DNA of 36,011 nt, from positions 248,422 through 284,432 of the forward strand of contig MEUZ01000003.1 in NCBI GenBank assembly GCA_001772615.1, in the 5' to 3' direction. Below, piece after piece: positions 26,660 to 26,731 of this stretch (the stretch's first letter is position 1; each line of letters opens with the position of its first letter). The translations under genes were made by a program, and so were the position numbers. Under the pieces are notes generated by a model. It saw only the letters and a program-made list of their open reading frames with translations. It had not been told where the DNA came from and ran no database searches. This DNA comes from a candidate division WWE3 bacterium RIFCSPHIGHO2_01_FULL_40_23. GTDB taxonomy: Bacteria > Patescibacteriota > WWE3 > UBA101185 > 2-01-FULL-41-18.

Positions 26660-26731
26660 TGGTGGATCGGAGGGGAATTGAACCCCCACGGCCAGAATGA
26701 CAGGTCCAGCCTGTTTACCAAAACCCGGCCC
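26660..26731 (-). ncRNA. 72-nt non-canonical tRNA-like RNA (Ala-type acceptor, GUC in an 8-nt loop; alternatively a tmRNA tRNA-like-domain mimic)
   Basis: GGGCCGG/CCGAUCC acceptor (G3·U70, C4xA69 mismatch), A73, encoded CCA, T-arm GGGGG-UUCAAUU-CCCCU, mini D-arm GUUU-UGGU-AAAC, 7-bp stem GGCUGGA/UCUGGCC with loop CCUGUCAU. Confidence 0.75.

What the first reader, a model, noticed from the sequence alone, without database searches (positions are those of the whole stretch)
26660..26731. 72-nt tRNA-like RNA with mismatched identity: Ala acceptor, Asp triplet, 8-nt loop
It has a good T-arm and encoded CCA but a non-standard core: no 8-9 linker, 4-bp/4-nt D-arm, 7-bp anticodon-like stem, 8-nt loop CCUGUCAU, 2-nt variable region. 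Real tRNA-Asp has G73; this has A73 and G3·U70. Eight-nt loops are typical of +1 frameshift suppressors. The flanks (UUUUGGUAAACAGG...UCUGGCCGUGGG) also resemble the tmRNA tRNA-like domain with the mRNA part replaced by a hairpin. Options: mistranslating or frameshifting tRNA, tagless mini-tmRNA/SmpB decoy, anticodon-nuclease decoy, or decayed tRNA.
Basis: partly seen in the sequence, partly recalled or inferred. Interest (0 to 1): 0.85.

Follow-up and report, generated by a model that had tools for sequence, protein, structure and literature searches.

The report
tRNA-like RNA with its own antisense partner
The 72-base element is a real, conserved alanine-type tRNA look-alike that comes paired with a small neighbouring RNA gene made to base-pair with it, a two-RNA cassette I could not find described in Rfam or in the papers searched.

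Summary
Window 26660-26731 (minus strand) encodes a compact cloverleaf: a tRNA-Ala-type acceptor (G3.U70, A73, encoded CCA), no 8-9 linker, a 4-bp/4-nt D arm, a long anticodon-like arm and a normal T arm.

ARAGORN and Rfam miss it, and its folding energy is no better than shuffles. It is neither decay nor an att scar: 42 distinct homologues show strong covariation (91% paired against 69% shuffled).

Right after the CCA lies a near-consensus promoter, a ~64-nt sRNA and a terminator. The sRNA's 5' end is the exact complement of the anticodon-like loop, and later segments match the D arm and the 3' strand of the anticodon-like stem. This complementarity covaries between genomes and between paralogues. 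In Peribacteria it is kept with the sRNA gene inverted.

The cassette is accessory and patchy in its class and phylum. Both copies in this genome are ~250-bp insertions into otherwise tight gene pairs, one being rplJ-rplL.

Best reading (inferred, ~0.4): an AlaRS-chargeable tRNA mimic switched off by a dedicated antisense RNA, behaving like an RNA-RNA toxin/antidote cassette. No expression or charging data exist.

The parts
26660..26731 (-). Compact tRNA-like RNA (TLD), 72 nt. It has a tRNA-Ala-type acceptor (G3.U70, C4.A69 mismatch, A73, CCA), a D arm of 4 bp with loop UGGU, an anticodon-like arm and a T arm.
   Evidence: Sequence; fold; covariance model R1 scores it 89.4 bits; covariation on 42 distinct homologues; acceptor compared with the host tRNA-Ala genes.
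26732..26733 (-). Conserved two bases before G1: U at -1 and G at -2. They can pair with A73 and C74 in the precursor. U at -1 is the base usually preferred by bacterial RNase P (recalled).
   Evidence: U-1:A73 in 35 of 41 and G-2:C74 in 30 of 41 sequences with letters. For comparison, U at -1 occurs in 25 of 47 ordinary tRNAs of this genome.
26698..26706 (-). Segment A of the TLD (TLD nt 26-34: the top of the 5' strand of the anticodon-like stem plus the loop). It is the target of the sRNA 5' end.
   Evidence: 9-nt exact complement of 26607-26615.
26687..26698 (-). Segment B of the TLD (TLD nt 34-45: the 3' strand of the anticodon-like stem and the variable region). It is the target of sRNA segment B'.
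   Evidence: Inverted repeat I2. 11 of 12 positions pair, by my reading of the sequence. A 7-nt exact core is listed.
26621..26649 (-). Promoter of the partner sRNA: TTGACA, 17 nt, TAATAT. It starts 11 nt after the CCA.
   Evidence: Promoter scan, 10 of 12 matches. A promoter of at least 10/12 lies within 120 nt downstream in 35 of 41 family loci.
26551..26614 (-). Predicted partner sRNA, about 64 nt. Segment A' (26607-26615) is complementary to the loop. D' (26592-26600) is complementary to the D arm. B' (26578-26589) is complementary to segment B. An intrinsic terminator follows (stem 26557-26570, then a U run). The ends are predicted, not mapped.
   Evidence: Cofold of the cognate pair gives ddG -14.7 kcal/mol against -6.6 with the other module's sRNA.
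26540..26783 (.). The whole cassette as an insertion of about 245 bp between a small ORF (26234-26539, +) and the Y-family polymerase (dinB-like) gene (26784-28070, +). It lies antisense to both.
   Evidence: In the two same-family genomes G001 and G002 the two genes abut or overlap and the cassette is missing.
26734..26783 (-). Region that should hold the TLD's own promoter. No near-consensus promoter was found here. It overlaps the upstream region of the divergent dinB-like gene.
   Evidence: The best position-constrained promoter is 8 of 12 here, with a family median of 7 of 12, against 10 of 12 for the sRNA promoters. The two searches are not equally constrained.

Best explanation
Shown. 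The element is a functional gene for a compact, tRNA-Ala-derived tRNA-like RNA (TLD). It forms a self-contained two-RNA cassette with a dedicated small antisense RNA. In this genome the sRNA is encoded directly downstream on the same strand, with its own strong promoter and terminator. The sRNA's first bases are the complement of the TLD's anticodon-like loop. Further segments are complementary to the D arm and to the 3' strand of the anticodon-like stem.

Inferred mechanism. The free 5' end of the sRNA seeds on the loop. Pairing then spreads and replaces the TLD's D and anticodon-like helices with intermolecular helices. This abolishes the L-shaped tRNA fold and leaves the acceptor/T minihelix. 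Because the TLD keeps the full AlaRS identity set, the free form is probably charged with alanine and engages the translation machinery (AlaRS, EF-Tu, ribosome) to the cell's cost. The sRNA is the specific antidote.

The cassette therefore behaves like an RNA-RNA toxin/antidote (addiction or abortive-infection type) module. It is gained and lost as a ~250-bp unit and diversifies into orthogonal pairs. Charging, harm and relative stability are all untested.
For: A real structured RNA.
- 42 distinct homologues are 91.0% paired against 69.3% in shuffles.
- The covariation score is 0.581 against 0.181 (0 of 500 shuffles reach it) and at most 0.137 when partners are slid.

Alanine identity.
- G3.U70 occurs in 40 of 42 sequences, and G1:C72 and G2:C71 in 42 of 42.
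- A73 and CCA are present in nearly all rows.
- The acceptor is of the same GGGCC.../...GGUCC-A-CCA type as the host's three tRNA-Ala genes.

The partner RNA.
- The longest exact complement between the TLD core and its own downstream 200 nt has a median of 11 nt. It is at least 9 nt in 22 of 29 loci.
- Against other loci the mean is 6.1 nt, with 25 of 784 comparisons reaching 9 nt.
- The cognate downstream region is the best duplex partner among 41 in 25 of 41 cases.
- A promoter of at least 10/12 lies downstream in 35 of 41 loci. The complement starts at -1 to +3 of the predicted start in 29 of 41.
- In 13 Peribacteria/Peregrinibacteria loci the DNA repeat has the same sense as the TLD. It lies beyond a shared terminator, with an opposite-strand promoter of 9-11/12 in 10 of 13 whose -10 ends 4-9 nt before the complement. 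Transcript-level antisense is therefore kept in a second gene arrangement.
- In the helix extensions G.U outnumbers A.C by 12 to 4.

Orthogonality.
- The two modules of this genome give cognate ddG of -14.7 and -22.6 kcal/mol, against -6.6 and +0.9 for the crossed pairs.
- 6 of the 7 copies in G083 rank their own sRNA first.

Accessory and insertion-prone.
- Matches at E<=1e-8 occur in 28 of 134 genomes of the class and 6 of 151 of a phylum sample.
- There are 1 to 7 copies per genome, some in tandem.
- The neighbouring genes are not conserved.
- Neither G001 nor G002, the two same-family genomes, has a match at E<=1e-8.
- Both copies here are insertions into tight gene pairs.

Precedent. Irregular tRNAs, some with G3:U70 and inserting alanine in E. 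coli, have been found near toxin-antitoxin genes and transposons. Two variants killed E. coli (passages read in PMC5389517 and PMC7609411).
Against: - There is no expression, end-mapping, charging or toxicity data. No RNA sequencing run holds the region.
- In the register where the conserved U (37 of 42) is U33, position 37 is C in 32 and G in 8 of 42. Decoding tRNAs almost always have a purine there (established knowledge), so efficient decoding is doubtful.
- The window copy has a C4.A69 mismatch next to G3.U70, so it may charge poorly.
- TLD-like RNAs outside the candidate phyla radiation (Chelativorans, a Janthinobacterium MAG, Dehalococcoidia, Acidobacteria) show no detectable antisense partner. 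The TLD alone is therefore not necessarily harmful, or another antidote exists there.
- About 9 of 41 Saccharibacteria copies lack an adjacent cognate partner.
- A full sRNA-TLD duplex around a loop closed by the acceptor stem is topologically strained (inference).
- The promoter-strength comparison is not like for like.
Confidence: 0.4

Rival explanations
1. Regulated recoding tRNA. The TLD is a working compact tRNA, charged with alanine, that reads a non-alanine codon or shifts frame with its enlarged loop. The sRNA is an on/off switch for a beneficial, condition-dependent recoding.
For: The AlaRS identity set is complete. The loop has a U-turn-like U (37 of 42) and an invariant A (42 of 42). 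Compact tRNAs with no or one linker base, 4-5-nt D loops and long anticodon stems (tRNA-Pyl) are translationally active (passages in PMC7609411). ARAGORN reads 6 of the 63 wide-scan hits that I count as TLD-like as tRNAs: Ser, Thr (twice), Ala and two undetermined. Two further ARAGORN calls in that set are ordinary tRNAs.
Against: The loop triplet varies freely between copies and genomes, so no common codon is targeted. C dominates position 37. The genome already has a full set of 47 tRNAs. The distribution is patchy and the element is absent from the nearest relatives. An 8-nt loop is particular to this copy.
Confidence: 0.12
2. A tRNA-derived miniature mobile element. The tRNA-like fold and the inverted copy serve the spread of the cassette (recognition, priming or processing by a recombinase or nuclease supplied in trans) and have no role for the cell.
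For: Both copies here are clean ~250-bp insertions between genes that abut in relatives. The element is multi-copy, in tandem arrays, in some genomes. It carries outward-facing promoter-like sequence next to the downstream host gene. In other phyla the TLD lies beside IS1595 (6 loci) or IS1 (5 loci) transposase genes.
Against: Copies within one genome are highly diverged in the paired segments, not near-identical as recent transposition would give. I saw no terminal inverted repeats or target duplications at the two insertion borders on reading them; this was not searched systematically. The TLD is single-copy in the 5 non-CPR genomes searched. Selection keeps G3.U70, A73 and the T loop, which points to interaction with the translation apparatus.
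Confidence: 0.15
3. The sRNA is the effector and the TLD is its decoy. The sRNA regulates other targets with its 5' seed, and the stable tRNA-like RNA titrates it (a sponge), or merely supplies processing and stability signals.
For: The sRNA has the stronger, near-consensus promoter. tRNA-linked sponges for sRNAs are known in E. coli (recalled: the 3' external transcribed spacer of the leuZ transcript).
Against: The seed is the most variable part of the sRNA, even between tandem paralogues, which leaves no room for a conserved external target. The TLD family is wider than the sRNA. The sRNA is complementary to three separate TLD segments, more than a seed.
Confidence: 0.1
4. A tagless mini-tmRNA, SmpB decoy or second ribosome-rescue RNA, possibly with the sRNA as a template supplied in trans.
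For: G3.U70/A73/CCA and the T arm are shared with tmRNA. The sRNA is tethered to the arm that stands where tmRNA helix P2 would be. Mitochondrial tmRNAs reduced to the tRNA-like domain are known (recalled).
Against: The genome has a normal one-piece tmRNA at 145.1 bits. The element scores 16.2 bits on the tmRNA model, like ordinary tRNAs. Its acceptor matches the host tRNA-Ala, not the host tmRNA. It has a true 4-bp D stem, unlike tmRNA. I saw no conserved reading frame on reading the sRNAs; this was not tested formally.
Confidence: 0.04
5. A dedicated non-ribosomal alanine donor (cell wall cross-bridge or lipid aminoacylation), throttled by the sRNA.
For: Alanine identity is conserved while the anticodon-like loop is not constrained to an alanine anticodon. 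Non-proteinogenic tRNAs for cell wall synthesis are known in Gram-positive bacteria (recalled).
Against: The distribution is patchy, the element is absent from sister genomes, and it arrives by insertion. Several orthogonal copies per genome are not needed for a donor. No conserved neighbouring transferase gene was found.
Confidence: 0.04
6. A decayed tRNA gene or the scar of an integration site.
For: The arms are non-standard, there is one acceptor mismatch, detectors give no call, and the folding energy is at chance level.
Against: The 3' half is not a copy of any own tRNA or of ssrA. The same odd architecture recurs in 42 distinct sequences with compensatory changes in all four helices, and with a co-varying partner.
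Confidence: 0.01

Closest known systems
Allo-tRNAs and other irregular tRNAs of soil bacteria (Mukai et al., PMC5389517; review PMC7609411; passages read)
   Same: Both are non-canonical cloverleaves missed by standard detectors. Some allo-tRNAs carry G3:U70 with non-alanine anticodons and insert alanine in E. coli. They are found near toxin-antitoxin genes and transposon genes. Some are inactive in translation and two were lethal in E. coli.
   Different: Allo-tRNAs have an 8/4 or 9/3 acceptor/T configuration and a long variable arm. This family is 7/5 with a 1-3-nt variable region, no 8-9 linker and a 4-nt D loop. No dedicated antisense RNA turned up for allo-tRNAs: the word 'antisense' does not occur in the main text of PMC5389517.
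Compact tRNAs such as tRNA-Pyl (review PMC7609411, passages read)
   Same: [quoted passage not shown]
   Different: tRNA-Pyl lacks G18G19 and the T-psi-C sequence and has its own synthetase. This family keeps GG in the D loop, a standard T loop and alanine identity. Its anticodon-like stem is longer (7 or more pairs, irregular).
tmRNA tRNA-like domain (Rfam RF00023)
   Same: G3.U70, A73, CCA and the T arm are shared, and there is no alanine anticodon.
   Different: There is no mRNA-like domain and no pseudoknots. The element scores 16.2 bits against a 47-bit cut-off. It has a true D stem. Its acceptor is of the host tRNA-Ala type. The genome has a normal tmRNA.
RNA antisense toxin-antitoxin loci with several orthogonal copies (type I Ibs/Sib, and type VIII RNA-RNA pairs such as CreT/CreA; recalled, not read here)
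   Same: Both are small, self-contained, multi-copy loci in unrelated contexts. Each antisense RNA matches only its own partner. The antisense RNA has a strong promoter. The distribution is patchy.
   Different: Here the presumed harmful partner is not an mRNA for a toxic peptide but a tRNA-shaped RNA. The antisense RNA is trans-encoded next to it (tandem or convergent), and its complementary segments stand in circularly permuted order (A'-D'-B') relative to plain antisense. Toxicity is unproven.
Loop-seeded antisense RNA control of plasmids (CopA/CopT, RNAI/RNAII; recalled)
   Same: Recognition starts at a hairpin loop and spreads into the stems, giving multi-helix junction complexes. Specificity diverges by loop sequence.
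   Different: Those systems use cis-encoded, fully complementary RNAs that control replication. Here the seed is the free 5' end of the sRNA, not a loop, and the target is a tRNA mimic on the chromosome.

Membership tests
Canonical tRNA (ARAGORN; Rfam RF00005) | Recognised by the standard detectors at their thresholds | tested here: not met
   ARAGORN finds 0 genes in the window. Rfam at gathering score finds 0. Of about 21 family copies in 16 loci, only one (L017) passes RF00005, at 32.5 bits against 29.
Canonical tRNA (ARAGORN; Rfam RF00005) | Two linker bases (8-9), a D loop of 7-11 nt, a 5-bp anticodon stem with a 7-nt loop (U33, purine 37), and a variable loop of 4 nt or more | tested here: not met
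   There is no linker, the D loop is 4 nt, the stem has 7 or more pairs, the loop is 8 nt in this copy and the variable region is 2 nt. Position 37 is C in 32 of 42 in the register that keeps U33.
Canonical tRNA (ARAGORN; Rfam RF00005) | A 7-bp acceptor plus a 5-bp T stem, a T loop UUCRANY, GG in the D loop, and a 3' CCA | tested here: met
   The acceptor helix, including the two leader pairs, is 93.9% paired and the T stem 98.1% paired.
AlaRS substrates (tRNA-Ala identity) | G3.U70 wobble pair, A73, G1:C72 and G2:C71 | tested here: met
   G3.U70 in 40 of 42; G1:C72 and G2:C71 in 42 of 42. A73 is seen in nearly all rows. The stem type is the same as in the host tRNA-Ala genes.
AlaRS substrates (tRNA-Ala identity) | Actual aminoacylation with alanine | not testable with these tools
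   Needs an in vitro charging assay. The C4.A69 mismatch of the window copy may matter.
tmRNA (RF00023) | An mRNA-like domain with a tag reading frame and pseudoknots; model score of at least 47 bits | tested here: not met
   The element is 72 nt and scores 16.2 bits. The genome's true tmRNA scores 145.1 bits at G000:C2:15200-15586.
Allo-tRNA | An 8/4 or 9/3 acceptor/T configuration and a long variable arm | tested here: not met
   The configuration is 7/5 and the variable region is 1-3 nt. The definition is taken from PMC5389517.
Antisense RNA toxin-antitoxin loci (type I / type VIII logic) | An adjacent antisense RNA that is specifically complementary to its partner, with paralogues that are mutually orthogonal | tested here: met
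Antisense RNA toxin-antitoxin loci (type I / type VIII logic) | The partner is harmful when the antisense RNA is absent; stable toxin, labile antidote | not testable with these tools
   No expression or growth data. No RNA run holds the region.
Miniature inverted-repeat transposable element | Terminal inverted repeats, target-site duplication, and many near-identical copies | tested here: inconclusive
   Insertion is shown. I saw no terminal repeats or duplications on reading the borders. Copies within a genome are diverged. The inverted repeat is internal.

The most novel reading that the evidence does not exclude
An RNA-only addiction or defence cassette in which the toxin is a tRNA. A stable, alanine-charged tRNA mimic corrupts or jams translation unless it is continuously unfolded by a short-lived cognate antisense RNA. 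The antisense RNA wraps around the closed D/anticodon core in permuted order. The cassette hops as a ~250-bp unit into operons of candidate-phyla-radiation bacteria (even between rplJ and rplL) and diversifies into orthogonal toxin/antidote pairs.
Probability: 0.25. Interest if true: 0.92.

Novelty: new variant of a known kind. Interest (0 to 1): 0.84.

Why it matters
Standard tRNA and RNA-family tools do not see these genes, yet they are conserved structured RNAs. They occur in several lineages of the candidate phyla radiation, and the tRNA-like half also occurs in other phyla.

If the tRNA mimic is charged by AlaRS and neutralised by its antisense partner, this would be a new way to build a toxin/antidote or a translational switch from RNA alone. 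It would also give a natural set of orthogonal RNA-RNA pairs.

The finding shows that tiny RNA cassettes can insert into core operons of very small genomes. It gives a directly testable case for the long-standing question of what irregular tRNAs with alanine identity do in nature.

Tried and rejected
- **Att-site scar.** blastn of the element against all 47 tRNAs, the tmRNA and the whole genome found no identical 3' half. Rejected.
- **Chance fold.** The energy z-score is uninformative, so the case rests on comparison.
- **tmRNA reading.** Generic score only. Rejected as membership.
- **Conserved protein neighbour in Saccharibacteria.** None found.
- **DUF5343.** A DUF5343 gene lies directly upstream of TLD-like RNAs in 3 non-CPR loci. 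Of 28 Chloroflexota and metagenome DUF5343 loci searched, only 1 (L156) has a TLD and 3 have ordinary tRNAs nearby. I kept this as a weak lead, not a partner. The Atlas look-up gave only 'DUF5343, unknown'. DUF5343 is absent from the window's genome. The metagenome scan for DUF5343 returned one locus.
- **Upstream palindrome TCTAnTnnnAnTAGA.** First taken for a cassette-specific operator. It is a general intergenic motif of the neighbouring family, with 10-22 sites per genome against 0-3 for the control, and it is not beside tRNAs. Rejected as part of the cassette. It is not upstream of the two copies in this genome.
- **Phage carriage.** 5 pattern hits in viral contigs, of which only one weak family-like match (45.1 bits) inside a phage tRNA cluster. 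No support.
- **Partner sRNA outside the CPR.** Not found next to the TLD. Not found elsewhere in the Chelativorans genome above the control count: 58 matches against 86 for the control.
- **Expression.** No RNA holder is listed for the region; only groundwater and soil DNA runs are.
- **Organism name.** The search for related loci with the dinB-like protein found nothing. The placement in Saccharibacteria rests on one locus (L089) whose contig length equals that of G041:C6.
- **Literature.** The following term sets found no description of this module: 'tRNA-like' + 'Patescibacteria' (0 papers); 'tRNA-like' + 'candidate phyla radiation' (1 unrelated paper); 'tRNA-like' / 'RNA toxin' / 'RNA antitoxin'; 'DUF5343' (0 papers); 'allo-tRNA'; 'Saccharibacteria' + 'noncoding RNA' + 'tRNA'; mistranslating tRNA / toxin-antitoxin terms. 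For some searches I saw listings and abstract starts only. Supplements were not asked for and could hold relevant irregular tRNA lists, for example for PMC5389517.
- **Closed or unused tools.** The structure, complex and protein-homology searches were not used.

**Caveats on counts.**
- R1 E-values are rough.
- The wide scan forced U at -1, GGG, the UGGU loop, the T loop and U70-CCA. It cannot measure how conserved those features are outside the CM-derived set.
- One class-level match (G128, L057) reads as an ordinary tRNA.
- Before the counts I dropped rows L042 and L044 (true tRNA-Ala) and identical duplicates.
- Three genomes marked unpublished (G482, G283, G365) enter only the tally of 41 of 401 DUF5343 genomes. 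Their loci (L136, L157, L163) were left out, and no other claim rests on them.
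Full report
**1. The observation**

- a 7-bp acceptor with G3.U70 and one C4.A69 mismatch, then A73 and an encoded CCA;
- no bases between the acceptor and a 4-bp D stem closed by UGGU;
- a 7-bp anticodon-like stem with the 8-nt loop CCUGUCAU;
- two variable bases;
- a standard T arm.

The energy is no better than chance: z = 0.10, and 103 of 200 shuffles fold at least as well. ARAGORN and Rfam at gathering score report nothing in the whole window. The best sub-threshold Rfam match is tRNA-Sec at 21.5 bits. 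By itself the element could therefore have been a decayed tRNA.

**2. Not a scar and not needed for decoding**

The window's genome is 1.01 Mb in 8 contigs and 99% complete. It has 47 ordinary tRNAs, including tRNA-Asp(GTC) with G73 and three tRNA-Ala genes. It also has a normal 387-nt tmRNA at 145.1 bits.

The element's 3' half is not a copy of any of these. The best match is 26 nt at 84.6% to tRNA-Ala(GGC). The tmRNA model gives it 16.2 bits, within the 15.9-24.5 bits of the other sub-threshold matches in this genome, most of which are ordinary tRNAs. Its acceptor is of the same type as the host tRNA-Ala genes, not the host tmRNA.

**3. A conserved RNA family**

A DNA search of relatives found matches that ARAGORN also fails to call. 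A covariance model built from seven of them (A1, R1) separates the family from true tRNAs. True tRNAs score up to about 42 bits on the model. Most family copies score 43-91 bits, and the two weakest copies I kept score 40.5 and 41.2 bits, overlapping the true tRNA-Ala scores.

On 42 distinct sequences the four helices are 91.0% paired against 69.3% in shuffles. The covariation score is 0.581 against 0.181 (0 of 500 shuffles reach it) and at most 0.137 when partners are slid. Seventeen of 24 pairs show changes on both sides. G3.U70 is kept in 40 of 42, and G1:C72 and G2:C71 in all 42.

The D stem covaries freely around an almost fixed UGGU loop. The anticodon-like loop has seven aligned columns, N-U-Y-R-N-(C/G)-A, with U in 37 of 42 and the last A in 42 of 42. 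The Asp-like triplet and the 8-nt loop are therefore peculiarities of this copy.

In the register that keeps U33, position 37 is C in 32 of 42. That is unusual for a decoding tRNA.

**4. The partner RNA**

In the window, 11 nt after the CCA stands a promoter (TTGACA, 17 nt, TAATAT). About 64 nt further on is an intrinsic terminator. The stretch between them contains inverted repeats of the element.

The same layout recurs in the homologues:
- The longest exact complement between a TLD core and its own downstream 200 nt has a median of 11 nt, and is at least 9 nt in 22 of 29 loci. Against other loci the mean is 6.1 nt, with 25 of 784 comparisons reaching 9 nt.
- By duplex energy the cognate downstream region ranks first of 41 in 25 of 41 cases. 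The mean is -31.0 kcal/mol for cognate pairs against -20.2 for the rest.
- A promoter with at least 10 of 12 consensus letters is present in 35 of 41 loci. In 29 of 41 the complement of the loop begins at -1 to +3 of the predicted transcription start.

The sRNA then carries a segment complementary to the D arm and a third complementary to the 3' strand of the anticodon-like stem, followed by the terminator. The order A'-D'-B' is a circular permutation of plain antisense. That order is what one expects for a strand that pairs around a loop closed by the acceptor/T helix (inference).

In the extensions of the helices, G.U outnumbers A.C by 12 to 4. This is a modest sign that the pairing is selected at the RNA level on the predicted strands.

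**5. A second gene arrangement**

A pattern scan of one genome per species, scored with R1, found family members in several lineages: Saccharibacteria, Doudnabacteria, Minisyncoccota, other Patescibacteria, and many Peribacteria/Peregrinibacteria.

Sixteen of the 63 hits have the tandem antisense partner. In 13 Peribacteria-type loci the arrangement differs. The TLD is followed by a hairpin terminator and then by a same-sense repeat (9-19 nt) of the loop region. On the opposite strand there is a promoter of 9-11 of 12 in 10 of the 13, and its -10 box ends 4-9 nt before the first base of the complement.

The sRNA gene is thus inverted, but the transcript is still an antisense RNA whose 5' end meets the loop. 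For me this is the strongest argument that RNA-RNA pairing, and not a DNA repeat, is the conserved feature.

**6. The cassette is accessory and arrives by insertion**

- Neighbouring genes differ from locus to locus.
- At E<=1e-8 the model finds the family in 28 of 134 genomes of the class. Twenty-five of these are in the window's own order of 89. One of the three outside it reads as an ordinary tRNA.
- It finds the family in 6 of 151 genomes of an even sample of the phylum.
- Copy number runs from 1 to 7, with tandem copies 280-700 nt apart.

The window's genome has a second copy at G000:C7:148945-149018. It has a different loop and its own sRNA, matched over 16 nt. Cofolding gives -14.7 and -22.6 kcal/mol for the two cognate pairs, but -6.6 and +0.9 for the crossed pairs.

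Neither of the two genomes of the same family has a match at E<=1e-8. In both of them the small ORF and the dinB-like gene that flank the window's cassette abut or overlap.

The second cassette sits between rplJ and rplL. The spacer there is 273 nt in this genome and 4-83 nt in 11 relatives.

Both cassettes are about 250 bp and lie antisense to the flanking genes.

**7. Outside the candidate phyla radiation**

TLD-like RNAs with the same architecture occur in several other groups: Chelativorans multitrophicus, a Janthinobacterium MAG, Dehalococcoidia, Acidobacteria and others. They are single-copy in the five genomes searched. They lie next to IS1595 (6 loci) or IS1 (5 loci) transposase genes, and in 3 loci directly downstream of a DUF5343 gene.

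No antisense partner was detected there. DUF5343 is not a regular partner either: only 1 of 28 loci has a TLD. Because the scan pattern forced several family features, these hits show presence, not frequency.

**8. Mechanism**

Shown: a conserved tRNA-shaped RNA with the full alanine identity set, and a cognate antisense RNA that covers its loop, D arm and anticodon-like stem.

Inferred: the sRNA seeds with its free 5' end on the loop and unfolds the body of the mimic. The free mimic is charged by AlaRS and engages the translation machinery.

Several features match the behaviour of antisense toxin-antitoxin loci:
- orthogonal paralogues;
- the stronger sRNA promoter (median 10 of 12 against 7 of 12 for the TLD, though the two searches are not equally constrained);
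- the patchy distribution;
- arrival by insertion.

Irregular tRNAs with G3:U70 near toxin-antitoxin and transposon genes are a published precedent (passages in PMC5389517 and PMC7609411).

Several facts count against this reading, or are simply missing:
- no data on expression, charging or harm;
- C at position 37;
- the C4.A69 mismatch of this copy;
- partner-less copies;
- partner-less relatives in other phyla.

I put 0.4 on the toxin/antidote-type reading. The descriptive core (a real RNA family with a cognate antisense RNA, in an accessory cassette) I hold at about 0.9.

**9. Known or new**

The element fails the membership tests for canonical tRNA, tmRNA and allo-tRNA. Rfam 15 has no family for either RNA: only one of about 21 copies just passes the generic tRNA model. 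Seven literature searches found no description.

I file it as a new variant that combines two known themes, irregular alanine-identity tRNAs and antisense RNA control. The architecture has no counterpart that I could find.

Noticed in passing
G000:C7:148810-149074 (own genome, outside the window; locus L056): A second TLD + sRNA cassette sits between rplJ and rplL, antisense to both. The spacer is 273 nt here and 4-83 nt in 11 relatives. How rplL is then transcribed is open. A perfect 16-bp palindrome with TACAAT-like boxes lies just upstream of rplL.
   Followed up: yes
Loci L179-L198 and upstream of many Saccharibacteria TLDs (e.g. L046, L047): The palindrome TCTAnTnnnAnTAGA, often extended to ATTCTA...TAGAAT, occurs at 10-22 sites per genome in four genomes of the neighbouring family, against 0-3 for the control pattern. 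The sites are mostly in intergenic regions upstream of protein genes. It may be a bidirectional -10-like promoter element or a global operator. It occurs only once in the window's genome.
   Followed up: partly
L082:3517-4212, L084:390-1184, L102:1261-2109, L156 (non-CPR genomes): A DUF5343 protein gene (function unknown, no papers found) lies directly upstream of a TLD-like RNA on the same strand in four loci from different phyla. Most DUF5343 loci have no such RNA.
   Followed up: partly
L077, L086, L098, L099, L110, L124 (IS1595); L067, L082, L095, L108, L114 (IS1): Outside the CPR the single-copy TLD-like RNA lies beside transposase genes of two different IS families. I could not tell whether it is a preferred insertion target or part of an island.
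   Followed up: partly
L064, L065, L070, L097 (Peribacteria): The bases just before the TLD (GTTCGG...) and just after its CCA (...CCGAAC) are complementary, so the precursor could form an extended processing stem. A ~60-nt upstream block is conserved between these loci.
   Followed up: no
window 26234-26539 and 26784-28070: A small ORF (101 aa) and a Y-family polymerase (dinB-like) gene form an overlapping pair in the two sister genomes. In this genome the cassette has separated them and the polymerase has a different N-terminus.
   Followed up: partly
window 29891-36010 (minus strand): A very long open frame (at least 2039 aa) runs off the window end. It was not examined.
   Followed up: no
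G000 tRNA set: ARAGORN lists a tRNA-Ile with anticodon UAU and only two CAU tRNAs. It gives a tmRNA tag ending ...AYV and a tRNA-Val with anticodon AAC. These were not examined.
   Followed up: no
L178:1638-1712 (viral contig): A large phage contig with a tRNA cluster carries a compact tRNA-Ala(UGC)-like gene with a short D arm (45.1 bits on R1). It is possibly an ordinary phage tRNA variant.
   Followed up: no
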